Shown here: positions 3,974 to 23,158 of the stretch, piece by piece | How the letters are laid out: every line of letters begins with the position of its first letter | How positions within the stretch are numbered: position 1 is the stretch's first letter | From: a virus | Taxonomy: Duplodnaviria > Caudoviricetes | Length of the DNA stretch: 64,000 nucleotides | Direction: 5' to 3' (one strand) | IMG/VR virus record: IMGVR_UViG_3300028887_000080 | Span: 32,001 to 96,000 of that record | The notes under the pieces: generated by a model | Database searches by the model: none | What the model was told of the DNA's origin: nothing | Seen by the model: only the letters and a program-made list of their open reading frames with translations | Made by a program: the position numbers and the translations under genes

Positions 3974-5794
3974 ATGTACAATATGGCTATCAATGAAAGT
4001 CAGGTTGTTGCTACTTGGGGACAGCACATTAAGGAATCCCTCGGTATCACTGACGAATCAAAACTCCAATGGATGTCGAAATATGCTTATCTTCACGATT
4101 TGCACGACAAGAAGATGATTGCGGAGTCTGTTGACGGACACGCACACCTCAACCCGAATATGAACATCGGCGGTATGGGCGCCATCAATTTCCCTGGTGC
4201 TGCCACCAACAACACCTATGACCGTTCACTCGCAGGTTCAGGTGACAATGTGTACAGCGTTCTTCCTTTGGCACTCCAAGTCGCTGCACAGACCATCGCT
4301 CTTGACTTGGTTCCTGTGGTTCCGATGCAAGGTCCTCACGGTCTGCTCCAATACCTTGACTATGTGTATGAAGGCGGTCGTCTGAACAATATGGGTGGAA
4401 GCGAATACACCTCTCCGTTGTATAACGGCAAACCTGAAAACTTCGCTTCTCCTTATATGATTAAGGCAAACATCACCGCTATGGACGGTGCTGGTACCGA
4501 CGCTGAAAAATTCATTTTCCGTCCGAACTCAACCTATCACTTCAAAGGCAACGATGATTATGAACTGACCTACATCTATCCTAACCGTATTGACGGTAAA
4601 CCGTTGTTCCGCGTGATTGAAAAATCACACTATGCAGGTCAGAAGATGGTCGGTGGAGAAAACGCTTCAACTCCGATTTACGTTCTCTTCGACAATCTTA
4701 TGTCAGACGGTTCCAACAAGACCACTCTCGTCTGCGATGAGTACATTGACAAAGACAATGTTAAGCACACTGACTTTGAAATGACCATCACAGCCGCCAA
4801 CGGTATTGAAAACGTCCGTGCATTTGAAGACCACGTCACTTCATTCAGCGGTGAAGGTTTCCTGAAGAAAACCGTCACAAGCAACAATCCTTACACCCGT
4901 GAAATGGGCGAGGCAACCCCAGGTCGTAAAATCGGTCTCAAGTCCTACACTTTGGACATCAAGGCAATGACCCTGAAAGTTGACTCCGCTATCACCCGTG
5001 AGCAGGTTCAAGACCTCAAGCAGTTCGGTATCGACGCTATTTCCCAAGCAGAAGCTGCACTCGTGAACGAACTCACACAGGGCATCAACAAAATCATCCT
5101 TGAAAAGATGTTCAACCTTGGTGCTCTCAATGCAGTTCAACTTCAAGAAGTTGAAGGTCGCAACCTTATCTCCGCTTGGTTCGTGAATGGTGAACCCGCT
5201 TCCACTACTGACAAAACCACTAACATTTGGTTGGGTGACAAATACAACAAAGAAACAGGCGAACTTGAAGGTAAATATGTTGCCGAAAACATTCCTTACA
5301 CCAACGTCACAGGCGGCGGTGAAGTGATGGGCACCATCCAACGTCGTATTATGACCAAAATCATCGCTGCTTCCAACGTGATTGCAGTCCGTGGTCGTAG
5401 AGGCGCAGGTACCTTCGCAGTCTGCTCCGGCACCATCGGTACCGCTCTCCAAGATTGCGCAGGTTTTATGCCTTATCCGCTTTCTAACACCATCTCCGCT
5501 AACGGCAACAGTCTGTATCCGATTGGCGCACTTGCTGGCATCAGCATCTACGTCGACCCGAATATGGCATTCAACGATATGCGCGTTGTGGTCGGTCGCA
5601 AGGGTAAAGAGAACGAACCAGGCATCGTGTTCTGCCCTTACCTTATGGCAGACAAAGTCGAAACTACAAGCGAGTTCACGATGGCACCTGTCATCTCCCT
5701 CCAATCTCGTTTCGCTTGTGTTGAGGCAGGTATCTACCCGCAGACGCAGTACTACACTTTCAGTATCAAACTCGACGGTGTAAGTCTTGTCTAA
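3974..5794 (+). CDS. Major capsid protein (T4 gp23-like)
   Basis: DLVPVVPMQGPHG, TREQVQDLKQ.GIDA..E..LVNEL..INK.I, RGRRGAGTF, G.LAG.SIYVDP, GIVFCPY, TMAP...SRF. Confidence 0.95.
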   Translation: MYNMAINESQVVATWGQHIKESLGITDESKLQWMSKYAYLHDLHDKKMIAESVDGHAHLNPNMNIGGMGAINFPGAATNNTYDRSLAGSGDNVYSVLPLALQVAAQTIALDLVPVVPMQGPHGLLQYLDYVYEGGRLNNMGGSEYTSPLYNGKPENFASPYMIKANITAMDGAGTDAEKFIFRPNSTYHFKGNDDYELTYIYPNRIDGKPLFRVIEKSHYAGQKMVGGENASTPIYVLFDNLMSDGSNKTTLVCDEYIDKDNVKHTDFEMTITAANGIENVRAFEDHVTSFSGEGFLKKTVTSNNPYTREMGEATPGRKIGLKSYTLDIKAMTLKVDSAITREQVQDLKQFGIDAISQAEAALVNELTQGINKIILEKMFNLGALNAVQLQEVEGRNLISAWFVNGEPASTTDKTTNIWLGDKYNKETGELEGKYVAENIPYTNVTGGGEVMGTIQRRIMTKIIAASNVIAVRGRRGAGTFAVCSGTIGTALQDCAGFMPYPLSNTISANGNSLYPIGALAGISIYVDPNMAFNDMRVVVGRKGKENEPGIVFCPYLMADKVETTSEFTMAPVISLQSRFACVEAGIYPQTQYYTFSIKLDGVSLV

Positions 5795-5940: not shown

Positions 5941-5950
5941 TATTTTTGCA
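5941..5950 (+). promoter_or_regulatory. Bacteroidetes-type -7 promoter element TAnnTTTG(CA)
   Basis: tatttttgca 17 bp upstream of the ATG at 5967. Confidence 0.5.
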
Positions 5951-5966
5951 AAGTGAAAATCAGACT

Positions 5967-7910
5967 ATGAACAGAGATGAATTGAAACGATTGTTGCTGC
6001 TTCCGAAATCGGAAGGCGGTATAAACCAAATCCAAGAAAGCGGGTTTGCGAAAATGTTTCCTGAAGAATATGCCGAATTGTGCGGCATTGACTTTCCGAA
6101 CGGGTTTACATTCAGGCAGAAACTTTATCATTGGTTGAACGGTGATTTTGGTCTTGCGCTCGGATTCTGCAAGAAATGCGGAAAGCGTTGTTCATTCAAG
6201 AACCTGTCAAAAGGTTATTTTGATTATTGCAGCAATTCCTGTGCGCAGAGTTCCGATGAGAACATAAAAAAAGTGAAAGCGACCAAACTTGAAAGGTACG
6301 GTGAAGAGAACTACAACAACAGGGAAAAATCAAAACGTACTTGTATGGAGGCGTATGGTGTTGACAATCCGTTGAAATCCGGCGATGTTGTGGAAAAGGG
6401 AAAACGCACCAAACTTGAAAGATACGGCGATGAGAATTACAACAACAGAAAAAAGGCGTCGGACACAAAACTTGAAAAGTATGGTGATTCGGCATATAAC
6501 AACCAACAGAAATACAAACAAACCTGCATTGAGAAATACGGAGTGGAAAACGTGTTCCAACTTCAGTCGGTGAGTGAGAAAATACACGACACTATGATGG
6601 ACAAATATGGTGTCGGGCATTCGATGCAGTCTCCTGTTTTTCAAGAAAAGGCGAAAGACACGAACCGCAAGCGATACGGGAGCGACTATGTTATGCAGAA
6701 TGATGAGGTGAAGCATAAGTCCCGTGACACCAATATTGAGAAGTACGGTCACCCTTGCAGTTTGCAGAATGACGAAGTTAAGGAAAAGGCGAGGAACACT
6801 ATGATTGAAAAGTATGGTGTCGAGCACAATTCGCAGACGAAGGAGTTTTGGGAGAAATACAAAGACACTTGTGTGGAGAAATACGGCGTGGAGCACCCTT
6901 CTATGAGCGAAGACGTCAAGGACAAGATGAAGCATACTTGTATTGAACGCTACGGCGTGGAGTATGCGTCGCAGAGCGATGAGTTCAAGAAAAGGGTGAT
7001 GGAGACGAACCGCAGGCTGTACGGGGTTGATTGGTATTGTATGACTTCGGAGTGCAGGTTGCACGGAAACGACAGCAAGGTGAACCTGAATTTCGCCAAG
7101 ACGCTTGAGGATTCAACAATACCGTTCGAGCGTGAATTTCCGTTGGAAGGGTATTCTTACGATTTCAAGGTCGGAAATGTGCTTATAGAACTCAACCCGA
7201 CCATAACCCACAATTCAGCGGTCAACATATATGGTGGGAACCCGAAAGACGAGAACTATCACTTTGCGAAATCGAACACTGCGGAATTGCACGGACTCTC
7301 CTGCATTCATATTTGGGATTGGGACGACAAGGCGAAGATAGTCCGTATGCTGAAACCCAAAACAATTCTGTATGCAAGGAAGTTGGTTCTGCGTGAAGTC
7401 GACGCCGTTTCCTGCGACCGTTTTTTGAACGAGCACCATTTGCAGAATACTTGCAAGGGGCAGTCTGTCTGCTTGGGTCTGTATATGGACGATGTGTTGG
7501 TTGAGGTTATGACATTCGGCAAACCGAGATACAACAAGAATTACGAATGGGAACTTTTGAGGCTTTGCACACATTGCGATTACAAGATTGTAGGCGGAGC
7601 GGAACGATTGTACAGTCATTTTGTGAAGTCATACATCCCGAAATCAATCATAAGTTATTGCGACAACAGCAAGTTCAACGGCGGAGTGTACAAAAGACTC
7701 GGAATGTCGTTGCTGCGCCTGTCCAAACCGAGCAAACATTGGTGGAACGGAAAACGGCATATCACGGACAACTTTTTGAGGCAGCGCGGGTTTGACCAAC
7801 TGTTCGGCGCCAACTACGGAAAGGGGACGGACAACAACGAACTTATGCTTGAACACGGTTTTTTGCCAATCTATGATTGTGGACAGATGACTTTTGTTGT
7901 TGAATTTTAA
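5967..7910 (+). CDS. Hef-like repeat nuclease paralog 2 (~12 YG repeats)
   Basis: Same architecture as 1016..2998; ATG start at 5967 chosen. Confidence 0.7.
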   Translation: MNRDELKRLLLLPKSEGGINQIQESGFAKMFPEEYAELCGIDFPNGFTFRQKLYHWLNGDFGLALGFCKKCGKRCSFKNLSKGYFDYCSNSCAQSSDENIKKVKATKLERYGEENYNNREKSKRTCMEAYGVDNPLKSGDVVEKGKRTKLERYGDENYNNRKKASDTKLEKYGDSAYNNQQKYKQTCIEKYGVENVFQLQSVSEKIHDTMMDKYGVGHSMQSPVFQEKAKDTNRKRYGSDYVMQNDEVKHKSRDTNIEKYGHPCSLQNDEVKEKARNTMIEKYGVEHNSQTKEFWEKYKDTCVEKYGVEHPSMSEDVKDKMKHTCIERYGVEYASQSDEFKKRVMETNRRLYGVDWYCMTSECRLHGNDSKVNLNFAKTLEDSTIPFEREFPLEGYSYDFKVGNVLIELNPTITHNSAVNIYGGNPKDENYHFAKSNTAELHGLSCIHIWDWDDKAKIVRMLKPKTILYARKLVLREVDAVSCDRFLNEHHLQNTCKGQSVCLGLYMDDVLVEVMTFGKPRYNKNYEWELLRLCTHCDYKIVGGAERLYSHFVKSYIPKSIISYCDNSKFNGGVYKRLGMSLLRLSKPSKHWWNGKRHITDNFLRQRGFDQLFGANYGKGTDNNELMLEHGFLPIYDCGQMTFVVEF

Positions 7911-7921
7911 TTCTGTTGTTT

Positions 7922-9655
7922 ATGATGAATGCGGAATGTGACACTACTATGGAAGAACTCAAAAATTTTCTCAATGCCAAACCCGTGTACTTGCAGGAAA
8001 GCAAATTTGCAGTGAAGTTTCCCGATGAGTATGTCACATTGTGCAGTTGGAAGTTTCCCGACGGGTTCACATTCCAGCAGAAACTTTATCATTATGTCAA
8101 TGGCGACAATATATTCAGACTTGGATTGTGTCCCACTTGTGGAAAGCGTTGCAGGTTCAAGTCATTTGGCAGAGGTTACTTTGAGTATTGCAGCAAATCC
8201 TGTATCTATACAAAGGAGCGTTCCGAAAAGTGCAAGGAGACAAAACTTGAACGATATGGTGACTCCAACTACAATAACATAGAAAAGGCGAAGCGTACTT
8301 GTATTGACAGATATGGTGTGGAGAACGTCTCGCTTGTTGAGAGCATATCGGAGCAGAAATCGGAAACAAGACGTAACAGGACATCGGATGAGAAAGCGGC
8401 GACAAGGGAGAAAATAGCACGGACGTGGGCGGCAAAGACAGATGATGACGTAAACAGGCATATAGAGAGTATCCGACAGGGAAAACTTGAAAAGTATGGG
8501 GACGTCAATTTTTCAAATCCGCAAAAGACAAAGGATACTAAACTTGAAAGATATGGGACACCAACCTATGTGAACCCTGAAAAAATGGTCGCGACAAAGC
8601 GTGCGAAGGCATTGGATGCAGACCCGAACATAATCAGTTTCAATACTGACGGCAGCGTGGTCAGGAGATGTGATAATCCATCCTGTGACAGGTGTGATGA
8701 AAAGTGCTATACCACATTCACGAGACTTCATTATGACAGAATCAGACTTGGGTGTATCACCTGCACCAAACTAAATCCCATTGACAGGCACACGAGCGGA
8801 GGTGAGAATGAGTTGTATGAATATGTCAGGGGGGTGTACGGAGGAACCATAGTGAAGAATGACAGGGGTGTCCTCGGAGGTCAGGAACTTGACATCTATC
8901 TTCCTGACAAGAAACTCGCATTTGAGTTCAACGGGTTGTATTGGCACAGTGATTTATACAAGGACAAGAACTATCACTTTGAGAAATCAAAATCCTGTAT
9001 GGAGAAAGGTGTGAGACTTGTCCATATATGGGAGGATGATTGGCGTTACAGGAGGGATATTGTGGAGAACCTCATATCAGGAATATTGGGAAAGCACAAT
9101 ACTTACATAAACGCAAGGAAATGTTCGGTGGGAAAGGTGGATGCAAAAACAGCGCGAGTGTTTTGTGATAAATACCATATACAGGGTTATGTGAACTGTG
9201 CTGTCAGATATGGTATTTTCTATAATGGAGAACTTGTGATGGTCTCGTTATTTGGAAAGCGCAGGCGGATTTGCGGAGGTGTCCCGAAAGAGAATGTTTG
9301 GGAACTTTACAGGATGTGTTCGGTGTTCGGAACGAGAGTTCGCGGAGGTGCGAGCAGATTGCTTGTGCATTTCATCAATGATGTCAGACCGAACTCCATA
9401 GTAACTTTTGCCGACTCCTGTATTTCTGACGGTGGAGTCTATGAGAAAATGGGTTTTGTGAAGGACGGTGTTGTGCCGCCATCCTACTATTGGGTTGTTG
9501 GCATTGAACGTGTGCCGAGATATAGGTTCCAAAAGTCAATGCTTGAGGAGTGCAAGGACAACTCTGACCTTACGGAGGATGAGGTGATGCGGTCAAGAGG
9601 ATGCCTCAAAATATGGGATGCGGGAAAAGTGAGATACATCATTGATATATCGTAA
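7922..9655 (+). CDS. Hef-like nuclease paralog 3 (fewer repeats, second Zn site, ELDIYLP..AFEFNGLYWHS nuclease variant)
   Basis: CPTCGKRC; YG repeats; ELDIYLPDKKLAFEFNGLYWHS..HIWEDDW; YHIQG..WELYRMC..GGASRL..TFAD..G.VYEKMGF..IWDAG. Confidence 0.7.
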   Translation: MMNAECDTTMEELKNFLNAKPVYLQESKFAVKFPDEYVTLCSWKFPDGFTFQQKLYHYVNGDNIFRLGLCPTCGKRCRFKSFGRGYFEYCSKSCIYTKERSEKCKETKLERYGDSNYNNIEKAKRTCIDRYGVENVSLVESISEQKSETRRNRTSDEKAATREKIARTWAAKTDDDVNRHIESIRQGKLEKYGDVNFSNPQKTKDTKLERYGTPTYVNPEKMVATKRAKALDADPNIISFNTDGSVVRRCDNPSCDRCDEKCYTTFTRLHYDRIRLGCITCTKLNPIDRHTSGGENELYEYVRGVYGGTIVKNDRGVLGGQELDIYLPDKKLAFEFNGLYWHSDLYKDKNYHFEKSKSCMEKGVRLVHIWEDDWRYRRDIVENLISGILGKHNTYINARKCSVGKVDAKTARVFCDKYHIQGYVNCAVRYGIFYNGELVMVSLFGKRRRICGGVPKENVWELYRMCSVFGTRVRGGASRLLVHFINDVRPNSIVTFADSCISDGGVYEKMGFVKDGVVPPSYYWVVGIERVPRYRFQKSMLEECKDNSDLTEDEVMRSRGCLKIWDAGKVRYIIDIS

Positions 9656-14130: not shown

Positions 14131-14643
14131 CTATACCCAAGTTATCTTTTTGTATTCTCCGTCTTCGTAGTAACCGAACGAAAAGCACATCGGGGTTAGG
14201 AAAACTGGTTCTGTGATGATGTTCTTTTTGTATTTGTCCGCATACCCCTTGTTCATATATGCGATTGTGATATGGGGTTTGTAGGTCGTGAACTCCGTGT
14301 GGAGGGTGTAGTTCGCCTTTATCGCGGAGTTTGTCGTATGAAGCGCTTGGCATACCACGCCGCATTTCAGGACGTCGTAGTTGTCGTTGCTGAACACGCT
14401 CACGTCTGAAAGCATTGTCTTGTAGTCGTTGAGAGGAAGCAGGTGCTTTTTCAACTGTTCAAGGTTGACGTCGTTGTCGAGACAGGGAGCGAGCGTGACG
14501 TGCGTCTCGGTTTCAAGTCCATAGACGAACGGTGAATCTGGGTCGCTCGGTTTGTACAGTTCATAGTCCTTGATGCTGTTTTGGATTCCCTTTATGTAGT
14601 CAGGTGTTTGGAAGTCCACCATCAAAAATGCGTATTTGTCCAT
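14131..14643 (-). CDS. 2H phosphoesterase (Acb1/gp57B-like or RNA 2',3'-cyclic phosphodiesterase)
   Basis: Two HxT motifs: THVTL and PHITI; 170 aa; located at the end of the tRNA operon. Confidence 0.8.
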   Translation of the reverse strand: MDKYAFLMVDFQTPDYIKGIQNSIKDYELYKPSDPDSPFVYGLETETHVTLAPCLDNDVNLEQLKKHLLPLNDYKTMLSDVSVFSNDNYDVLKCGVVCQALHTTNSAIKANYTLHTEFTTYKPHITIAYMNKGYADKYKKNIITEPVFLTPMCFSFGYYEDGEYKKITWV

Positions 14644-15868: not shown

Positions 15869-15879
15869 ATAATCTCATA

Positions 15880-16046
15880 GATGCAACCAATCACTTTCCG
15901 CTTTGGCGGTGTATTCGGACTACGGGTCGATTACCTCCGACGTCCTAATTACGTCCATTCTCTCTAACGGGCACTCGATGTCCATCAGTGAAGTTCTATT
16001 CGGGGCGTCGTCACGTTTCCCGCTACGGGTCTATATTGGTTGCATC
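15880..16046 (-). ncRNA. Putative ~167-nt structured RNA
   Basis: Perfect 12-bp closing stem gatgcaaccaat / attggttgcatc. Confidence 0.55.
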
Positions 16047-16187
16047 CGTTTAAGAAATTCGGCAAACGAGTTTTGTATCGTCATCTTAAACTAAATGTTG
16101 ACACAACCGCATCGCATTCTGCGGTCGCTTTGAAACGCCAACAATGTGCCCACAACGAAGGGTCACAAATCTTGCCGTATCCCATTG

Positions 16188-16661: not shown

Positions 16662-16774
16662 GTTTACAACCTTTACAGACCGTATGGTTACACACGGGAA
16701 GTATAACCGAACCATACGTCGGTGTGCGCTGAACCCGTATCCGCAAACGGCAGCAACCGTTCCTAATCGGACAT

Positions 16775-17160
16775 CACGGACTTTACTTTTTTATGCACCT
16801 CGCCTTTACAGCGGCACGCACACCATTTCACGCAAACCATAAAGATTGTGGACAGACTCTTTGGTGTTTATCGCTTTGTCTCCGACTTGCATCGTCGCAC
16901 TTGCGGTGTGCGAGACCGTGCCTTCTTTTTTATATATGTCATCCCTTCGGGCATTGGGCAGAAAGGAAAACATAATATATTTGAGAATTTCTCTCTCACG
17001 CGCTTGCGTGGTTCCTGTCGGAATGCTCCTTTCCAATACATTGCAGGGAACACGTCCCCGCGACCGACAGTGGTCGCCCATATATCATTTCAGGGCATTG
17101 CTCCGACAACGGGATGAAAAAGCAAGCGAATCTTATGTTCGCCAAAAAATAAAGTCCGTG
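16775..17160 (-). ncRNA. Putative ~386-nt large structured RNA
   Basis: 11-bp perfect closing stem cacggacttta / taaagtccgtg; several GNRA-capped hairpins on the minus strand. Confidence 0.6.
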
Positions 17161-17475: not shown

Positions 17476-17898
17476 AAGTGATTGATGTGTTGTTACACCA
17501 AATTCTCCGACGGCGGTTTCACGGACATCTCAACGGGCGACTAACTTGGCAACTACGCCCTGCGCCGAACTTTTCTTCATAGTTCGGACACCCCCGCTTT
17601 CGCGGTGAAGATTAAGAGCAATCTCCTCTCGTACTGTCGCTCCTTATCCGTCGTACCTGTCTCCGACACCGAATTGCACTTGCGCCACATCAAGGAGACA
17701 CCCGTGTTTCAACGGGATTTTAATTGAGGACAACCGTGTATTCGTGCTTGTGACTCCGTGAGGTTGCCCATACCGCACCAAGTTCGCTGGTATGGTGTTC
17801 TTGTGACGTAAATCAACTATGCGCATAGTAGTATGTAGTCACTACCTCTTGAAACTCTTTAGAGGATGGACACTATCAGTCCCACCTTTCAATCACTT
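17476..17898 (-). ncRNA. Putative ~423-nt large structured RNA
   Basis: 10-bp perfect closing stem aagtgattga / tcaatcactt filling the Ser-His spacer; many internal hairpins. Confidence 0.65.
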
Positions 17899-18155: not shown

Positions 18156-18299
18156 CTGTTATGGCGGGACTCGAACCCGCAGTACCGCAGTAATCCTGAA
18201 CCGCGGGCAACCTTTACGTCTCACTCCCAAGACTTCTAATCTGACCGACAATGGTGACGGTTTCAAGCGAGGGTTTGCCAATTCCCCTTCACATAACAG
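18156..18299 (-). ncRNA. Expanded tRNA-like RNA (~144 nt) with insertions in the anticodon and variable regions
   Basis: Acceptor ctgttatg/cataacag, Leu-like D-loop aattggcaaa, perfect T arm gcgggTTCGAGTcccgc; ~85 nt between the D and T arms. Confidence 0.7.
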
Positions 18300-18318
18300 T
18301 TGTGTGTTGATGAATTTG

Positions 18319-18397
18319 TAGGGGAGGTGGGACTCGAACCCACATACACCAATTACAGAATTAACGACTGTATATAAGACAGGACTGATACACCCCT
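18319..18397 (-). tRNA. Atypical tRNA-Ile(TAT)-like with truncated D arm and long variable region
   Basis: aggggtg/ctcccct acceptor; ctgt-CT TAT AT-acag; intact T arm. Confidence 0.7.
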
Positions 18398-18485
18398 ATG
18401 CGATGCCGAGAATCCCTGTCATAAATTTGCCCGCCAACGGCGGACACCCATCAACAGATGGGGCAAGGCATTGCTTGTGAAAGAG

Positions 18486-18559
18486 TGCTCCCAGCAGGAC
18501 TTGAACCTACGACCCCCTGATTATGAGTCAGGCGCACTAACCAACTGTGCTATGGGAGC
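18486..18559 (-). tRNA. tRNA-Met/Ile2(CAT)
   Basis: cctga-CT CAT AA-tcagg. Confidence 0.9.
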
Positions 18560-18565
18560 ATAGAA

Positions 18566-18927
18566 ACAAGGCGGTTTTTTTAGCGAGTACAAATTAACGG
18601 TTTGTTGCTTGAAAATAGTGGTTTGCGGAATCCGCCTTTATATGTTCAGTATTATGGAAAAAGAGAAAATTCAAAAAAACAAGGCAGGGGTTGTTAGCGA
18701 GTACAAATTAAAAGTTTGTTGCTTGGATAGGTTTGCTGCACCTGCCTTTATTATTCAGTATTATGGAAAGAGAAGATTCAAAAAAAAAACAAGGGAGATT
18801 TGTTGCGTTTCAAAGTTACAGTTTGATGCCTACAATGTTTGCTGAACCTCCCTTTAGATACAAGGTGATTTTTTTGCTTGGTTGAATTTGGATTTCACTT
18901 TGCAATGCGTTTGCTGCAATCACCTTT
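18566..18927 (-). ncRNA. Tandem array of four small covarying hairpin RNAs carrying anticodon stem-loop mimics (18566-18639, 18679-18749, 18789-18855, 18860-18927)
   Basis: Minus-strand consensus AAAG-stem-nnCAGCAAA...ASL...stem'-CTTGT; stems differ in sequence but keep pairing. Confidence 0.75.
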
Positions 18928-18939
18928 TTGTTTTAATTG

Positions 18940-19012
18940 TATCCCCGCAGGGACTCGAACCCCAATCTTGAGTTCCGTGGACTCACATTCTAATCCATTG
19001 AACTACGGGGAC
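18940..19012 (-). tRNA. tRNA-Arg(ACG)
   Basis: tgagt-CC ACG GA-actca (C33). Confidence 0.88.
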
Positions 19013-19117
19013 TTATATGGGCGGGGTTATCGTCATACCTTACTATAGTTATACGCCGAATATGATGTTATCCCCTGCGTAAACTTGTTCCAATGTACGG
19101 TTGGAGTTTACGTTTAG

Positions 19118-19190
19118 TGGGAAGGGGTGGAGTCGAACCACCATCATCGGATTTTCAGTCCGCTGCATAGACCTGCTTTGCTACCTTCCC
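19118..19190 (-). tRNA. tRNA-Phe(GAA)
   Basis: cgga-CT GAA AA-tccg. Confidence 0.9.
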
Positions 19191-19269
19191 GTTTTGCGGA
19201 TGTGTGTCTCGCGACAGGCGTCCGCAACTGATAAATATAAAAAAACACAAATAAAATGATTATCACAAG

Positions 19270-19340
19270 AGCGGCATATCAGAATCGAACTGACATATCC
19301 AGATTGGAAGTCTGGCGCACTGCCTTTGTGCTAATGCCGC
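19270..19340 (-). tRNA. tRNA-Gly(TCC)
   Basis: ccaga-CT TCC AA-tctgg. Confidence 0.9.
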
Positions 19341-19363
19341 GTGAGGCGCGCGTCCGCGCCCGT

Positions 19364-19427
19364 ACAAGAGGCGTGATGAAATGACTTATCCCAAAAGTTT
19401 TTCTTGTTTTTTGCCGAATGCCTCTTT
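19364..19427 (-). ncRNA. Fifth copy of the CAGCAA hairpin RNA family (ASL loop TT GGG AT)
   Basis: acaagaggc...ttgccgaatgcctcttt on the + strand. Confidence 0.65.
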
Positions 19428-19432
19428 TTTTG

Positions 19433-19546
19433 CCGCGGAGATTGGAGTCGAACCAATGTCAGGAGTTCCCAATAGCGAAAATTGCTGATAGGTTCTTTGA
19501 ACAAGAATCATTTGCTACTCCCGTTCTGCCGTTAAACTACTCCGCG
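19433..19546 (-). tRNA. tRNA-like gene with ~43-nt anticodon-loop insertion (Pro TGG if excised)
   Basis: cgcggag/ctccgcg acceptor, normal D and T arms, ggagt/actcc stem enclosing a 50-nt loop that ends TTGGGA. Confidence 0.7.
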
Positions 19547-19551
19547 ATGTT

Positions 19552-19885
19552 CCGACATAATGTGGTGTGAACCGCTGAAACCACAATCGCACTTTCGCTG
19601 TCGGGGCGAACTCCGCTTTGTTTCTCCGGAGCGGAAAACCATCACTGCATTCGTTTTGATTAACAATATACAGCATCACGGTATCGCACCGTGCTCTCTC
19701 CGCAGGGTCGCGGGCGTGTCACTTGACACCTATGTTGCAGTGATTGTATGTCCTCCCGCCCGTGCCTTTGCACATTATCTGCGGATTTGTATGGACACGT
19801 TTCAAGGTTGTGCTGAAACCCGACGCCATTCTAAATGTTATTTTAAGGAAGCGTTTAACTCTCCTAAAACTATGTGCGGCATAGT
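19552..19885 (-). ncRNA. Putative ~330-nt pseudoknotted RNA
   Basis: Helix 19641-49/19736-44 crosses helices 19699-705/19779-85 and 19710-16/19757-63. Confidence 0.55.
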
Positions 19886-19890
19886 CTTTG

Positions 19891-19961
19891 TTGAACTTGG
19901 AGGACTCGAACCTCCACCAACAGAACCAAAATCTGTTGTGCTGCCATTACACCAAAGTTCA
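19891..19961 (-). tRNA. tRNA-Gln(TTG)
   Basis: acaga-TT TTG GT-tctgt. Confidence 0.93.
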
Positions 19962-19966
19962 ATATG

Positions 19967-20038
19967 TGGGTCGGGCGGGACTCGAACCCGCAGTCCCCTG
20001 ATTAAGAGTCAGGTGCAGTGCCATTTTGCTACCGACCC
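19967..20038 (-). tRNA. tRNA-Lys(CTT)
   Basis: cctga-CT CTT AA-tcagg. Confidence 0.93.
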
Positions 20039-20042
20039 GATG

Positions 20043-20198
20043 TGGGCAGGGAAGGATTTGAACCTCCGAACCCGAATGGGAGCGGATTGGCAATGTGGGA
20101 AATTACGAATTTCCGAAACTTCATTATTCACATTGCGGTTTAACGTGTAACCTTCACGTAGTACAGTCCGCCGCGTTTAACCACTTCGCTACCTGCCC
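20043..20198 (-). tRNA. tRNA-Tyr(GTA) interrupted by a 73-nt intron-like insertion (20089-20161)
   Basis: gcgga-CT GTA [73 nt] AA-tccgc; otherwise canonical Tyr body with variable arm. Confidence 0.85.
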
Positions 20199-20210
20199 TT
20201 ATAGAATTTG

Positions 20211-20281
20211 TGGACATTACGGGAATCGAACCCGCTTTCACGCCTCCCGTTGCAGTGGGACACGCTACTGCCGTTATGCCC
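20211..20281 (-). tRNA. Atypical tRNA-Cys(GCA)-like with shortened D arm
   Basis: tccc-a CT GCA A c-ggga; intact T arm; imperfect acceptor. Confidence 0.6.
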
Positions 20282-20292
20282 TTGTTGTTATG

Positions 20293-20364
20293 TGTCACGG
20301 ATGAGACTCGAACTCACAATCCCCTGATTAAAAGTCAGGTGCATCGCCATTATGCTACCGTGGC
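20293..20364 (-). tRNA. tRNA-Lys(TTT)
   Basis: cctga-CT TTT AA-tcagg. Confidence 0.92.
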
Positions 20365-21189
20365 ATTTTTTATTTTTTGTATTATATTTTTAATGAATCG
20401 TTCTTTACATTCTTTTGGCATTTTTTTATACCGAGACCATCTTATTCTAAATAAACACGTCCATCCATTTTTTTGTAATACTTCAGTTCGTTTTTTGTCG
20501 TGTTTAACAATACGCTTGTCCAAATAATGTTGTTCCCCATCAACTTCAAAATATGTTTTTGTTATTGGAAATGCAAAATCCAAAAAATACCCAAATTGAT
20601 AATAATTTTGTTCATATTCAATATGTTCATCATTCAAAATTTGCTTAAAATACTTTTCACAATAACTATCACCGTGTGAATGATGATTTAATACATAAGG
20701 AACTTTATTCGGGTGCTTTTTCAAATACTTTTTTCTAATATCAGAAAGGTGCTGTTTTTCTTGTTCAGTATGCTTTATTCCTTTTTGTGGACTTTTTAAT
20801 TCACCGTTTTCATAACGGAGTTTAAGTGAAATTGCTGCTTGTTTAACACGCTCATCTGTCTCTTTTGTTAAACCTTTGTTCCACGGACGCTTACCCATCA
20901 TACCATTACGATATACTCTATTTTTGTTTTGTGGACACTTACATTCGTGTGCTTTAAGTGATTTTACACTATAACATTGTTTTCCACAGTATTTACAAAC
21001 AAGACTTTCATCTTTGTCGTAATGATAATTTTCATTACTATGTTTTTTTGAATATACCGCATAACCACAAACGTGATTTTCCAAAGGTTTTCTATTTGGA
21101 TTCAACTTACAAGTTCTTTCGTGAATACCCAATGCACAAGAACGTTTTAACATTTTGTTACAATACCTACAAATATACATCATTTCCAA
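20350..21189 (-). CDS. Free-standing putative homing endonuclease (C2H2-like Zn fingers + NUMOD-like segment + DUF559/Vsr-like nuclease)
   Basis: CRYC..HERTC, CKYCGK..HECKC, PWNKGLTKETD, KHTEQEK, YFLDFA..YFEVDGEQHY..D..R...L...GW..FRIRW; much lower GC than neighbours. Confidence 0.75.
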   Translation of the reverse strand: MEMMYICRYCNKMLKRSCALGIHERTCKLNPNRKPLENHVCGYAVYSKKHSNENYHYDKDESLVCKYCGKQCYSVKSLKAHECKCPQNKNRVYRNGMMGKRPWNKGLTKETDERVKQAAISLKLRYENGELKSPQKGIKHTEQEKQHLSDIRKKYLKKHPNKVPYVLNHHSHGDSYCEKYFKQILNDEHIEYEQNYYQFGYFLDFAFPITKTYFEVDGEQHYLDKRIVKHDKKRTEVLQKNGWTCLFRIRWSRYKKMPKECKERFIKNIIQKIKNATVA

Positions 21190-21236
21190 TATATTATTAT
21201 ATTTATAAGTACGCTAACATTGAGTTATCATCATTG

Positions 21237-21309
21237 TAGCGGGAGCAGGACTCGAACCTGCGATTACGAGATTATGAGACTCGTGAGATGACCACTTCTC
21301 CATCCCGCT
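21237..21309 (-). tRNA. tRNA-Met(CAT), initiator-like body
   Basis: agcgggatggagaagtgg 5' end; CT CAT AA loop. Confidence 0.85.
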
Positions 21310-21315
21310 ATGTTT

Positions 21316-21386
21316 ACAAGGTGGCATAACCATTAACCTTAAATTAAATAAATACTATGGAAACTGTTTTGCTGAAAACCACCTTT
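21316..21386 (-). ncRNA. Sixth copy of the CAGCAA hairpin RNA family
   Basis: acaaggtgg...ttttgctgaaaaccaccttt. Confidence 0.65.
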
Positions 21387-21390
21387 CTTG

Positions 21391-21464
21391 CTGGGATGGA
21401 GGGACTTGAACCCCCGACTTACGGATTAACAGTCCGCCGTTCTGACCAACTGAACTACATCCCA
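21391..21464 (-). tRNA. tRNA-Asn(GTT)
   Basis: gcgga-CT GTT AA-tccgt. Confidence 0.93.
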
Positions 21465-21470
21465 TTGTTG

Positions 21471-21545
21471 TGGGCAAGGCAGGACTTGAACCTGCGACCC
21501 CCGCCTTATCAGAGCGGTGTTCTGACCAAACTGAACTACTTGCCC
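21471..21545 (-). tRNA. tRNA-Ile(GAT)
   Basis: ccgct-CT GAT AA-ggcgg. Confidence 0.93.
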
Positions 21546-21623
21546 GTGAAAATTGAGTTGGTTTATGGTCTAACTCAAGACTAACGACCGCTCTTATTAT
21601 GAAAAACAATAATATGGTTTTTG

Positions 21624-21707
21624 TGGTCGGGGCGGGAATTGAACCCGCACGTCCTTTCGGACAAAGGTTTTTGAGACCTTCGCGTCTACCAATTCCGCCA
21701 CCCGACC
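21624..21707 (-). tRNA. tRNA-Leu(CAA)
   Basis: aaggt-CT CAA AA-acctt. Confidence 0.93.
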
Positions 21708-21750
21708 GCAGGCGTCAATGCGGCAAAGAGAGCGTAAAAAGGATTTATAG

Positions 21751-21831
21751 TGCGTCAGAAAGGACTCGAACCTTCACGCCTCTCGGCATCGGTTCCTAAA
21801 ACCGACGTGTCTGCCATTCCACCACAGACGC
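21751..21831 (-). tRNA. tRNA-Leu(TAG)
   Basis: tcggt-TT TAG GA-accga. Confidence 0.92.
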
Positions 21832-21836
21832 ATTTT

Positions 21837-21891
21837 ACAAGATACTTAAAATTTCCTATAATTTTTTTAATAGATTGCTGAATGTATCTTT
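21837..21891 (-). ncRNA. Seventh copy of the CAGCAA hairpin RNA family
   Basis: acaagatac...ttgctgaatgtatcttt. Confidence 0.65.
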
Positions 21892-21899
21892 ATTTCTCG

Positions 21900-21977
21900 C
21901 GTACCGTACGGGACTCGAACCCGCATTTACCTCCGTCACGATGACAGCGTGCTTACCGCTATTACACCAAACGATAC
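21900..21977 (-). tRNA. Atypical tRNA with ambiguous anticodon arm (Asp GTC or Arg TCG)
   Basis: gtatcgt/acggtac acceptor, G73, intact T arm; cacgCTGTCATcgtg versus ctgtCATCGTGacgg folds. Confidence 0.6.
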
Positions 21978-22053
21978 TGACGGGAGATTGAACGCTAAAG
22001 AATGCGGTATCGCGATTACCGCGAAGCGTCTTGTACAACCTTTGTCCCGTTTG

Positions 22054-22125
22054 CGGTCACACTGGGAATCGAACCCAAATCTCGTGATAGACAGTCACGC
22101 ATCTTAACCTTTAGACGATGCGACC
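22054..22125 (-). tRNA. tRNA-Asp(GTC)
   Basis: cgtga-CT GTC TA-tcacg. Confidence 0.92.
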
Positions 22126-22135
22126 GTTTGTCGGT

Positions 22136-22538
22136 TTATGTCCGCGCCTCTCCACGACGCTTCCAATCTTTTGCATAATTTCAGCGATTTATACACGCAG
22201 TTCCGACTACTTTGCGTGTGCCCCGTAAAAATGTGGAACATACATCTACGGACATAACTCCCCGCAGCGGAGCAGGCGTTTTTTCACGCAACGCCCCTTG
22301 CGTACCATTACGGCGGTATTGGAGACGCCGCAAGGAATTTGACCGTTTTTATGGAGACCGCCACCTGACAGGCGGTTTGTCCAATTTCTTTTTAGAATGC
22401 GGATTTCCGATAACCTTGCATTCCATTTTAAGCGTTTTTAACTTGTCAGGATTTTTGGCGCGTGTTACGCCGTTTTTGGCGCGTGTTACGCCCACGCCTT
22501 ACGACCGCGACGCGAACTTATAAGAACGCACCGGGGGA
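22136..22538 (-). ncRNA. Two adjacent putative structured RNAs (~22136-22257 and ~22259-22538)
   Basis: ttatgtccg/cggacataa and tccccg/cggggga closing stems; internal cctgaca/tgtcagg; 20-nt tandem duplication at 22452-22492. Confidence 0.45.
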
Positions 22539-22726: not shown

Positions 22727-22782
22727 ATGTCAAAGAACTTTCGTTCGTCGGCGGCGTTAAGACCGCCTGCATTTGAATATAA
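22727..22782 (-). promoter_or_regulatory. tRNA-operon leader: TTATATTCAA promoter motif, hairpin and boxA-like antiterminator AGTTCTTTGACAT
   Basis: + strand atgtcaaagaact (22727-39), ggcgg..ccgcc hairpin, ttgaatataa (22773-82). Confidence 0.65.
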
Positions 22783-23158
22783 TAAAAAAAATCAACTTTT
22801 TTACAGATATTGAAAAAAATCTCAAAAAAAAATCGGAGGTTGCTTTCACATACCTCCGATTCTATTTGGTTTCAGTGGGGTATGGTCATTCTTCCTTTGA
22901 GTATTCATTATCTTGTTTCTGTCCGAAACTTGCACCATTGCCGTCAAAAATGCCGCAATACGCCTGTTTCGGGGATATGTGCTTCCCTGTTTTTGGCGTG
23001 CGGTTGTCGGTTGCGATGTTTGTTTTGGAAAGAATCATTGAGTTCTTTTTATTATTTTTTCGGAATATATTTATACAAGTGTTTTTGCACTGTTTCCAAT
23101 GGGTGTGAAAATGGTGCAAAACCTCTGAAAATGAATATATCGCAGATATATCTGACAT

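What the first reader, a model, noticed from the sequence alone, without database searches (positions are those of the whole stretch)
18566..21891. Family of small RNAs displaying anticodon stem-loop mimics on a conserved covarying scaffold (candidate tRNA decoy system)
Seen: seven 55-75 nt elements in the tRNA operon (18566, 18679, 18789, 18860, 19364, 21316, 21837) share the minus-strand frame AAAG-[stem]-nnC(A/C/G)GCAA...[stem']-CTTGT. The stems differ in sequence yet keep pairing: GGCGG, GGCAGG, GGGAG, GGTGA, GAGGC, GGTGG, GATAC. Five carry an internal 4-5 bp hairpin with a 7-nt loop shaped like an anticodon loop: acaaa-CC GTT AA-tttgt (Asn), acaaa-CT TTT AA-tttgt (Lys), tcaaa-CT GTA AC-tttga (Tyr), tgaa-AT CCA AA-ttca (Trp) and actt-TT GGG AT-aagt (Pro). 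Copies 1 and 2 are near-duplicates with the same ASL stem but different anticodon loops. Copies 6 and 7 have no clean ASL. Known: tRNA-Lys(UUU) is cleaved by PrrC and PARIS AriB, tRNA-Tyr by the retron Ec78 effector, and Tyr/Asn by colicin E5-type nucleases. Inference: these RNAs are decoys or inhibitors of host anticodon nucleases or tRNA-modifying enzymes. The invariant CAGCAA may be a protein-binding site, for example for a Ro60/TROVE-like partner encoded elsewhere.
Basis: partly seen in the sequence, partly recalled or inferred. Interest (0 to 1): 0.93.

Follow-up and report, generated by a model that had tools for sequence, protein, structure and literature searches.

The report
Phage small RNAs displaying tRNA anticodon arms
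Seven small folded RNAs hidden among this rumen phage's tRNA genes share one conserved "handle" and each hold out a copy of a tRNA anticodon hairpin; in related phages the same handle travels with a gene for a ring-shaped Ro60-like protein, so they look like an uncatalogued relative of the Ro60/Y-RNA particle, whose function is unknown.

Summary
All seven elements are at the stated places on the minus strand (9 pattern matches against 0.48 expected). An eighth copy lies outside the window. Each has a closing helix that varies in sequence but keeps pairing, a single-stranded (A)CAGCAA, and a CUUGU end. Five carry hairpins whose 7-nt loops match this phage's own tRNA anticodon loops at 6-7 of 7 positions.

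No Rfam family matches. The family is widespread in viral contigs and nearly absent from bacterial genomes. Members usually sit 3-9 nt upstream of a tRNA gene. Longer relatives carry a circularly permuted tRNA body, the YrlA topology. One odd tRNA in this window carries the handle in place of its anticodon loop.

I tested a lead from earlier notes of this scan, which found the same handle on other DNA. A DUF2828+vWA protein is encoded in 16 of 18 handle-bearing records against 1 of 16 controls. All 63 model hits around 80 such genes lie on the gene's strand. Its predicted fold matches Ro60 best. The gene is missing from this 39%-complete record but present in a close relative.

Most likely these are Y-RNA-like partner RNAs that mimic tRNA parts. 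The decoy function is untested. This is a new variant of a known kind.

The parts
18566..18639 (-). Handle RNA copy 1. Closing helix AAGGCGG/CCGCCUU, then UCCGCAA. Payload hairpin ACAAA-CCGUUAA-UUUGU (about 18589-18605), Asn-like. Ends 6 nt before tRNA-Met (18485-18559).
   Evidence: (R2 50.9 bits, E 4.5e-8). The payload loop differs at one position from the phage tRNA-Asn loop CUGUUAA.
18679..18749 (-). Handle RNA copy 2, a near-duplicate of copy 1. Helix AAGGCAGG/CCUGCCUU, then GCAGCAA. Payload ACAAA-CUUUUAA-UUUGU, whose loop is identical to that of the phage tRNA-Lys(UUU). Followed by a U-run.
   Evidence: (51.9 bits). The tRNA-Lys loop was read.
18789..18855 (-). Handle RNA copy 3. Helix AAGGGAGGUU/AAUCUCCCUU, then CAGCAA. 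Payload UCAAA-CUGUAAC-UUUGA, Tyr-like. Followed by a U-run.
   Evidence: z -2.4; 49.5 bits. A natural DNA variant, 18798 A>G, turns a G.U pair of the helix into G-C.
18860..18927 (-). Handle RNA copy 4. Helix AAGGUGAUU/AAUCACCUU, then GCAGCAA. Payload UGAA-AUCCAAA-UUCA, Trp-like; the phage tRNA-Trp loop is CUCCAAA. Lies 11 nt after tRNA-Arg and 4 nt before copy 3.
   Evidence: z -2.4; 45.3 bits. A contig of an RNA library, X12, covers 18830-18984.
19364..19427 (-). Handle RNA copy 5. Helix AAGAGGC/GCCUCUU, then UUCGGCAA. The payload contains UUUGGGA, the anticodon loop of the phage tRNA-Pro(UGG). Lies 5 nt after the odd tRNA and 23 nt before tRNA-Gly(UCC).
   Evidence: 43.3 bits; missed by the narrower model R1. 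RNA-library contig X12 covers 19362-19913.
21316..21386 (-). Handle RNA copy 6. Helix AAGGUGG/CCACCUU, then UUCAGCAAA. AU-rich payload with no clean anticodon arm. Lies 3 nt after tRNA-Asn and 6 nt before tRNA-Met.
   Evidence: 36 bits, E 5.8e-5.
21837..21891 (-). Handle RNA copy 7, the shortest at 55 nt. Helix AAGAUAC/GUAUCUU, then UUCAGCAAU. The payload hairpin has a 10-nt loop. Lies 7 nt after tRNA-Asp and 5 nt before tRNA-Leu(UAG).
   Evidence: z -2.4; 44.7 bits.
19433..19546 (-). tRNA-shaped gene with acceptor, D and T arms intact. Its anticodon loop is replaced by about 50 nt carrying the same handle in the other circular permutation (UUCUU-GUUCA-AAGAA hairpin, then UAUCAGCAAU), followed by AUUGGGA.
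   Evidence: fold; the only such closed handle in the 124-kb record. Not called by ARAGORN or Rfam.

Best explanation
These are small structured non-coding RNAs of a phage-specific family built from two modules. The first module is a handle: a closing helix whose outer three pairs, AAG/CUU, are conserved while the inner pairs covary. The helix is followed by a conserved single-stranded (A)CAGCAA and ends in GU. The second module is a variable payload that copies a piece of a tRNA. In this window the payloads are the anticodon arms of Asn, Lys, Tyr, Trp and Pro tRNAs. Relatives also carry a circularly permuted tRNA body.

The RNAs are transcribed with the tRNA array. I infer that they are released by the enzymes that trim the flanking tRNAs, RNase P at the 3' side and tRNA 3' processing at the 5' side.

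The handle most likely docks the RNA on a phage-encoded Ro60-like ring protein (DUF2828 plus a vWA domain), giving a particle analogous to Ro60 with Y RNA. This step is supported by association only.

The displayed tRNA parts would then engage proteins that read tRNAs, such as host anticodon nucleases, modification enzymes or translation factors, as baits or tethers. This last step is inference.
For: Reality of the elements:
- The window has 9 frame matches against 0.48 expected.
- Model R2 finds exactly the 8 copies in the window and L001.

Closing helix, tested without circular selection:
- 99 distinct IMG/VR matches to a linear pattern fix only AAGG/CCUU. Of these, 32 have a stem of at least 7 bp, against 5.2 expected.
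- 13 of those 32 have a tRNA gene starting 3-9 nt downstream, against 0 of 67 short-stem matches.
- Pair counts on 48 members: 90.9% paired against 74.8% shuffled, covariation 0.488 against 0.177, 0 of 500 shuffles as high.

Phage-specific distribution:
- A strict pattern over 596 Gb of bacterial and archaeal genomes gave about one convincing member.
- No Rfam family matches.

Payload mimicry:
- 50 of 128 members carry an anticodon-like 7-nt loop, against 7.4 +/- 2.5 in shuffles.
- CUUUUAA recurs on six different stems.
- The window's loops match the phage's own tRNA loops.
- Longer members enclose a T arm, a closed acceptor hairpin and a D arm. They are the only non-tRNA Rfam hits to YrlA: 37.9 and 30.8 bits, below the threshold of 69.

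Partner protein:
- PF11443 is present in 4 of 4 and 12 of 14 handle-bearing records, including all 7 that are at least 95% complete. It is present in 1 of 16 control records.
- Handles directly flank the gene on its strand in 7 of 16 loci.
- Around 80 protein-anchored loci there are 63 R2 hits, all on the gene's strand and mostly just upstream.
- 59 of those 80 loci hold tRNAs, and 463 of the 467 tRNAs are co-oriented with the gene.
- The AF2 model (pLDDT 79.7) has Ro60 structures as all of its listed top PDB matches with E up to 1e-4: 1YVR, 1YVP, 2I91, 2NVO and phage phiLo 9L5Y.
- The MIDAS residues DxSxS are invariant.
- The relative G001, whose major capsid protein is 80% identical, encodes the protein.
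Against: - No DUF2828 or TROVE gene is found in this 124-kb record. The record is only 39% complete, so the partner in this phage is unproven.
- Binding of handle to protein is not shown anywhere.
- Only 34 of 80 DUF2828 loci have a handle within 5 kb at E <= 0.01.
- Two handle-bearing records lack the gene; both are incomplete.
- The handle does not resemble the known Ro60-binding helix or the CGAA motif of Y RNAs (PMC12135203).
- Copies 6 and 7 display no anticodon arm.
- Folding energies of copies 1 and 2 are unremarkable (z -0.4 and -0.9).
- Transcript evidence is only contigs from RNA libraries, which cannot show ends.
- The displayed anticodons are diverse and not limited to known nuclease targets.
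Confidence: 0.6

Rival explanations
1. The handle binds some other partner, such as host Ro60, a host RNA chaperone or nuclease, or no protein at all. The RNAs then act on their own as anticodon-arm decoys or sponges, and the link with DUF2828 is only shared residence in tRNA arrays.
For: DUF2828 is absent from this record. DUF2828 genes themselves sit in tRNA arrays, so co-location could partly be indirect. Many handles lie far from the gene; in the 413-kb relative G164 the distance is about 200 kb.
Against: Handles flank the gene even where no tRNA is near (L062, L064, L090-type loci). Co-occurrence is 16 of 18 against 1 of 16. Host TROVE was found in only 5 of 151 sampled Bacteroidales genomes, with no handle beside it.
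Confidence: 0.15
2. These are cis-acting punctuation of the tRNA operon: leader hairpins that guide RNase P, RNase E or RNase III processing, or act as terminators or attenuators, with no function as free RNAs.
For: Tight packing between tRNAs, 3-11 nt from the upstream tRNA and 4-6 nt to the next gene for most copies. There is a U-run after copies 2, 3 and 8, and copy 8 sits in a 5' leader before an ORF.
Against: A conserved unpaired ACAGCAA and conserved tRNA-like payloads are not needed for punctuation. Most copies have no U-run. Only a minority of tRNAs in each array have one. Members occur beside DUF2828 genes without tRNAs. The permuted form inside a tRNA body cannot be a leader.
Confidence: 0.08
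3. This is an intron-like splicing module. The helix brings together halves of split or permuted tRNA genes, as the bulge-helix-bulge does in Cyanidioschyzon merolae or archaea, and is removed to give working tRNAs. The short copies would be relics.
For: The handle sits at the anticodon position of a tRNA body in this window. Relatives have 3' half then 5' half order with perfectly complementary acceptor strands, some with an encoded CCA.
Against: No cut-and-join position regenerates a canonical 7-nt loop in the cases inspected (by eye). The most common members carry only a hairpin. No splicing endonuclease was looked for or seen. The same topology, kept unspliced, is known from YrlA (PMC4201824).
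Confidence: 0.07
4. These are DNA-level sites: structure-specific recombination or mobility sites, like integron attC or MITEs, that shuffle tRNA cassettes.
For: Variable sequence with conserved pairing and conserved outer core recalls attC. Tandem copies and near-duplicates exist (copies 1 and 2). Circular permutations exist.
Against: Strict co-orientation with transcription: 63 of 63 hits and 98 of 98 descriptor hits on the gene's strand. G.U pairs occur in the helix. The arms lie 40-100 nt apart. The attC core motifs are absent. No recombinase is consistently nearby.
Confidence: 0.03

Closest known systems
Bacterial and phage Y RNAs of the YrlA type with Ro60/Rsr (Rfam RF02553; Chen et al. 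2014, PMC4201824)
   Same: Both are modular RNAs in which a terminal 5'-3' helix serves as a protein handle and a second module mimics tRNA. Long members of this family have the same T arm, closed acceptor hairpin and D arm order, and are weakly hit by the YrlA model. The candidate partner has a Ro60-like fold with a vWA/MIDAS domain.
   Different: The handle motif (AAG helix plus ACAGCAA ... CUUGU) is unrelated to the YrlA or Y RNA Ro-binding helix. No member reaches the Rfam threshold. The protein is DUF2828, not detected by the TROVE model. The commonest payload is an isolated anticodon arm, which YrlA lacks. There are many copies per genome, embedded in tRNA arrays.
Thermus phage phiLo Ro60 with Yrl1/Yrl2 (PMC12135203; PDB 9KOP, 9L5Y)
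   Same: A phage-encoded Ro60-type ring protein with small partner RNAs encoded just upstream of its gene. These structures are the top structural matches of the DUF2828 model.
   Different: The phiLo RNAs carry the canonical CGAA bulge and no tRNA parts. The protein there is a recognisable TROVE protein. Sequence identity to DUF2828 is about 14%.
Phage tRNAs that counter anticodon nucleases (from my own knowledge: T5 tRNA-Lys against PARIS, T5 tRNA-Tyr against retron Eco7 PtuAB, T4 repair against PrrC)
   Same: Located in phage tRNA arrays, with emphasis on anticodon loops such as Lys UUU and Tyr GUA.
   Different: Those are complete, decoding tRNAs that replace cleaved host tRNAs. These RNAs have no acceptor end or elbow and cannot decode.
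Permuted and split tRNA genes (C. merolae, Nanoarchaeum)
   Same: Some relatives have the 3' half placed before the 5' half, with leader and trailer pairing in a helix.
   Different: No bulge-helix-bulge was recognised. Bacterial hosts lack the splicing endonuclease. Most members have no tRNA body.

Membership tests
YrlA / Y RNA (RF02553, RF00019) | Scores at or above the Rfam gathering threshold | tested here: not met
   No hit on the seven elements. Long relatives score 37.9 and 30.8 bits against a threshold of 69.
YrlA / Y RNA (RF02553, RF00019) | Encoded next to a Ro60/TROVE gene | tested here: inconclusive
   The TROVE model finds nothing in the own record or in 5 related phages. A Ro60-fold DUF2828 gene accompanies the family in relatives but is not in this record.
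YrlA / Y RNA (RF02553, RF00019) | Conserved Ro-binding bulged helix (CGAA-type motif) in the terminal stem | tested here: not met
   The handle is an AAG/CUU helix plus ACAGCAA. The YrlA model aligns only the tRNA-like domain.
YrlA / Y RNA (RF02553, RF00019) | tRNA-like domain with T arm, closed acceptor hairpin and D arm | tested here: not met
   None of the seven window copies has it; they carry anticodon arms. It is present in long relatives (L124, L137, L143).
YrlA / Y RNA (RF02553, RF00019) | Physical binding to Ro60 | not testable with these tools
   No RNA-protein binding tool was available.
Ro60/TROVE proteins (for the candidate partner DUF2828) | HEAT-repeat ring plus vWA domain with MIDAS | tested here: met
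   AF2 model with pLDDT 79.7. The listed top PDB matches with E up to 1e-4 are all Ro60 over 506-581 columns, TM 0.40-0.53. DxSxS is invariant. PF25043 and weak VWA_2 hits.
tRNA (RF00005) | Cloverleaf with acceptor, D, anticodon and T arms | tested here: not met
   ARAGORN and Rfam do not call the elements. Only the anticodon arm is present.
Intrinsic terminator | GC-rich hairpin with a short loop followed directly by a U-run | tested here: not met
   The loop is 40-55 nt. A U-run follows only copies 2, 3 and 8.
Known self-cleaving ribozymes (Rfam classes) | Match to a ribozyme covariance model | tested here: not met
   No hit at E <= 5 in 18200-22200.
Integron attC sites | R''/R' core RYYYAAC ... 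GTTRRRY, with no fixed orientation to transcription | tested here: not met
   The core motifs are absent (read by eye). The elements are strictly co-oriented with genes.

The most novel reading that the evidence does not exclude
Phages with tRNA arrays deploy a previously undescribed ribonucleoprotein: a Ro60-like DUF2828 ring loaded with interchangeable handle RNAs. Each RNA presents a different tRNA anticodon arm or tRNA body as bait, capturing or neutralising host tRNA-targeting defences such as anticodon nucleases, or tRNA-modifying enzymes, during infection.
Probability: 0.3. Interest if true: 0.92.

Novelty: new variant of a known kind. Interest (0 to 1): 0.8.

Why it matters
What Ro60 and Y RNAs do in bacteria and phages, and why bacterial Y RNAs mimic tRNA, is still unclear. 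This family gives an unusually clear view of the design. One conserved handle carries many different payloads, each a recognisable tRNA part, and the RNAs are spread through hundreds of large phages together with a Ro60-shaped protein of unknown function (DUF2828). If the particle baits tRNA-reading proteins, it would be a new kind of phage counter-defence. It would also assign a function to a protein family shared with plants and other eukaryotes. The handle is a ready-made search key for annotating "empty" spacers in phage tRNA arrays.

Tried and rejected
- **Rfam.** Gathering and E-value modes found only tRNA-related hits.
- **Promoter reading** (Bacteroidota -33/-7 boxes, hairpin promoters). 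Rejected by eye: the box spacing is variable, the stem covaries, and TATAAT-like sequences lie upstream of some relatives.
- **Known ribozymes.** No model match.
- **A pseudoknot between GCAA and the payload loop.** It holds only for two members.
- **Model R1,** built from five copies. It was too narrow and missed copies 5 and 7.
- **Relative G001.** It has no tRNAs and no R1 hits, so it says nothing about the array. Its DUF2828 region (106-121 kb) has no counterpart in this record.
- **Lak-A1 megaphage tRNA region (43 kb).** No R2 hit.
- **TROVE/Ro60.** Absent from the own record and from five related phages. It is rare in sampled Bacteroidales (5 of 151), with no handle next to it.
- **Public reads.** Only contigs were available. 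RNA-library contigs cover copies 4 and 5, but transcript ends cannot be read from them and DNA carry-over cannot be excluded. There is no cover of copies 1-2 in any RNA run.
- **Conserved third protein next to DUF2828.** None was found.
- **Literature.** Searches for permuted tRNAs in phages, anticodon decoys, tRNA-array ncRNAs and DUF2828 found no description of this family.

Full report
**Source and setting.** The window is bases 32001-96000 of a 124-kb IMG/VR virus record. CheckV rates the record 39% complete. The DNA comes from bovine gut or rumen samples. A large tRNA array of 26 ARAGORN tRNAs, all on the minus strand, occupies about 14.7-22.6 kb. The finding lies inside that array.

**Observation.** All seven elements are present at the stated coordinates on the minus strand, the strand of the tRNAs.
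- The linear frame AAAG-N7-11-GCAA-N25-55-CTTGT occurs 9 times in the window, against 0.48 +/- 0.64 in shuffles. Seven of the nine are the elements.
- Each has a closing helix of 7-10 bp, counting the conserved AAG/CUU, with a different inner sequence. It is followed by (U)UC(A/C/G)GCAA, a 35-50 nt interior, the complementary strand, and then GU.
- An eighth copy lies outside the window at G000:16220-16291(+). It sits between a promoter-like sequence and a small zinc-ribbon ORF and is followed by a run of 11 U.
- The copies are packed between tRNAs. Copies 4-7 start 3-11 nt after the preceding tRNA or tRNA-like gene. Copies 1, 4, 6 and 7 end 4-6 nt before the next tRNA or element. Copy 5 ends 23 nt before the next tRNA, and copies 2 and 3 end 39 nt before the next element.

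**Payloads in the window.**
- Their loops match this phage's own tRNA anticodon loops. CUUUUAA is identical to tRNA-Lys(UUU).
- CCGUUAA compares with CUGUUAA (Asn), CUGUAAC with CUGUAAA (Tyr), and AUCCAAA with CUCCAAA (Trp).
- Copy 5 contains UUUGGGA, identical to tRNA-Pro(UGG). Pro(UGG) therefore fits copy 5 better than GGG.
- The mimic stems are AU-rich and unrelated to the tRNA stems.
- Folding energies are modest (z from -0.4 to -2.4). MFE structures show the payload hairpin in copies 1, 2 and 4 only.

**Not a known RNA family, and not a host feature.** Rfam gives nothing but tRNA-related hits. Pattern scans of IMG/VR returned many relatives. A stricter pattern over 596 Gb of bacterial and archaeal genomes gave 62 matches, of which about one is convincing: a contig with five tRNAs binned with a Saccharibacteria MAG.

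**The helix is selected.** I tested this on matches that were not chosen for pairing.
- 99 distinct IMG/VR matches to a linear pattern fix only AAGG and CCUU. The stem-length distribution among them is bimodal.
- 32 of the 99 have at least 7 bp, against 5.2 expected.
- 13 of those 32 have a tRNA gene starting 3-9 nt downstream. None of the 67 short-stem matches does.
- On an alignment of 48 distinct members, the eight helix pairs are 90.9% paired against 74.8% in shuffles and 28-59% when slid. The covariation score is 0.488 against 0.177 (0 of 500). Those members were chosen with a stem filter, so this count describes the helix rather than proving it.
- A natural DNA variant in another sample changes a G.U pair of copy 3's helix to G-C.
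- The sharper consensus is A-AAG-(4-7 bp)-N-(A/U)ACAGCAA(A/U) ... CUU-GU.

**Payloads across the family.**
- Of 128 non-redundant short members, 50 have a stem of at least 4 bp with a 7-nt loop of the form Y-U-NNN-R-N, against 7.4 +/- 2.5 (maximum 14) in shuffled interiors.
- CUUUUAA is the commonest loop and sits on at least six different stems, so the loop is conserved while the stem covaries.
- Thirty different triplets occur. The sequence flanking the arms (AAGCA ... CGC) resembles tRNA positions 22-26 and 49-51.
- Of the 33 members longer than 95 nt, 23 contain a T-loop motif.
- Several long members enclose a variable loop, a T arm, a 3' acceptor strand (sometimes with CCA), a short loop, a 5' acceptor strand, a D arm and an anticodon-stem strand. 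This is a circularly permuted tRNA body whose anticodon stem points at the handle.
- These are the only non-tRNA Rfam hits in their loci. They hit YrlA at 37.9 and 30.8 bits, below the threshold of 69, and only the tRNA-like domain aligns.
- The topology is that described for YrlA (PMC4201824).
- In this window a tRNA-shaped gene at about 19433-19546 carries the handle in the other permutation. The helix is closed by a GUUCA loop, followed by UAUCAGCAAU, in place of the anticodon loop.

**Partner protein.** After I had reached the handle-plus-tRNA-part and YrlA-like reading, earlier notes of this scan reported the same handle on other DNA, next to a Ro60-like DUF2828 gene. I treated this as a lead and tested it.
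- PF11443 is found in 4 of 4 related handle-bearing phages.
- It is found in 12 of 14 further handle-bearing records of at least 50 kb, and in 1 of 16 control records brought in by chance pattern matches.
- All seven handle-bearing records that are at least 95% complete have it. The two that lack it are 42% and 70% complete.
- In 7 of 16 loci the handles directly flank the gene on its strand.
- Anchoring on the protein instead, at least 526 relatives exist in IMG/VR. Among the best 80 loci, model R2 finds 63 handles at E <= 0.01 in 34 loci. All 63 are on the gene's strand, and most lie within a few hundred bases upstream.
- 59 of the 80 loci hold tRNAs, and 463 of the 467 tRNAs are co-oriented with the gene. 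No other conserved neighbouring protein appears.
- The protein is DUF2828 plus DUF7788, which is vWA-like, with an invariant DxSxS.
- Its AlphaFold model (pLDDT 79.7, pTM 0.74) has Ro60 structures as all of its listed top PDB matches with E up to 1e-4, over nearly full length: Xenopus 1YVR/1YVP/2I91, Deinococcus 2NVO, human 9NEN and Thermus phage phiLo 9KOP/9L5Y. E-values run from 9e-7 to 1e-4 and TM from 0.40 to 0.53.
- The Pfam TROVE model itself finds nothing in these phages.
- Host Ro60 is rare in sampled Bacteroidales (5 of 151), with no handle beside it.

**Limits for this window.** No DUF2828 homologue is present in the 124-kb record, by family model or by a profile of 14 homologues. 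The close relative G001, whose major capsid protein is 80% identical, encodes one, but in a region with no counterpart in this record. In the 413-kb relative G164, which carries very similar handles, the gene lies about 200 kb from the tRNA array. The partner may therefore lie in the missing 60% of this genome, but that is not shown. Transcript evidence is weak: contigs from an RNA library cover copies 4 and 5.

**Interpretation.**
- Shown: this is a real, phage-specific, structured RNA family with a covarying helix and a conserved single strand. Its payloads copy tRNA parts. It has a strong genomic link in position and orientation with a Ro60-fold protein gene and with tRNA arrays.
- Inferred: the handle docks on that protein, and the RNAs are released by tRNA-processing enzymes.
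- Speculative: the displayed tRNA parts bait or tether tRNA-reading proteins. The diversity of anticodons argues against a single nuclease target, although Lys UUU is the commonest loop and Tyr, Asn and Asp loops also occur.
- Rivals: another partner, cis-acting punctuation, a splicing module, or DNA-level sites. They are listed with their evidence in the rival explanations.

**Comparison and novelty.** The closest known system is Ro60 with Y RNAs, especially YrlA and the phage phiLo Ro60 with its Yrl RNAs (PMC4201824, PMC12135203). This family differs in four respects: the handle motif, the protein family, the isolated anticodon-arm payload, and its multiplicity inside tRNA arrays. I found no description in Rfam or in the papers searched. 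I class it as a new variant of a known kind. The scan has met the same handle on other DNA before.

Noticed in passing
window 20043-20198 (-), insert 20089-20161: tRNA-Tyr(GUA) carries a 73-nt insert in its anticodon loop. DNA contigs from two other samples (X2, X4) join 20088 directly to 20162, so the insert is optional in the population. It may be a small mobile intron-like element.
   Followed up: partly
window 19560-19880, 17480-17890, 16680-17160, 15870-16180 (-): Long GC-rich, apparently structured spacers lie inside the tRNA array, with no Rfam match and no convincing ORF. RNA-library contigs cover 19362-19913 (X12) and 19529-19870 (X22). They are candidates for large unknown RNAs; GOLLD and ROOL are known to sit near phage tRNA arrays.
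   Followed up: no
window 20350-21189 (-): A 279-aa ORF with DUF559/REase_MTES_1575 endonuclease domains sits inside the tRNA array between tRNA-Met and tRNA-Lys. It is probably a homing endonuclease.
   Followed up: partly
window 1016-2998, 5946-7910, 7916-9655, 59619-61514 (+): Four paralogous 580-660 aa genes match the homing-endonuclease/HNH families phrog_3339 and phrog_559. Three of them surround the major head protein gene (3974-5794).
   Followed up: partly
window 14131-14643 (-): A 170-aa ORF at the edge of the tRNA array gives weak hits to the 2'-5' RNA ligase/2H phosphoesterase family and to anti-CBASS Acb1.
   Followed up: no
window 20210-20281 (-): A tRNA-like sequence between tRNA-Lys(UUU) and tRNA-Tyr is not called as a tRNA. 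ARAGORN folds it into a dubious 'tmRNA' (20210-20592), and Rfam gives a weak tmRNA hit (16.4 bits).
   Followed up: no
window about 22770-22790 (-) and L001:3960-3985 (+): The motif TTTTTTATTATATTCAAATG is shared upstream of the tRNA array and upstream of the leader that holds copy 8. It is probably a phage promoter.
   Followed up: no
L124:7286-7356, L071, L137, L143 (relatives): Several handle-bearing phages encode a suppressor tRNA with anticodon CUA right after a handle RNA. This suggests TAG recoding in those lineages.
   Followed up: no
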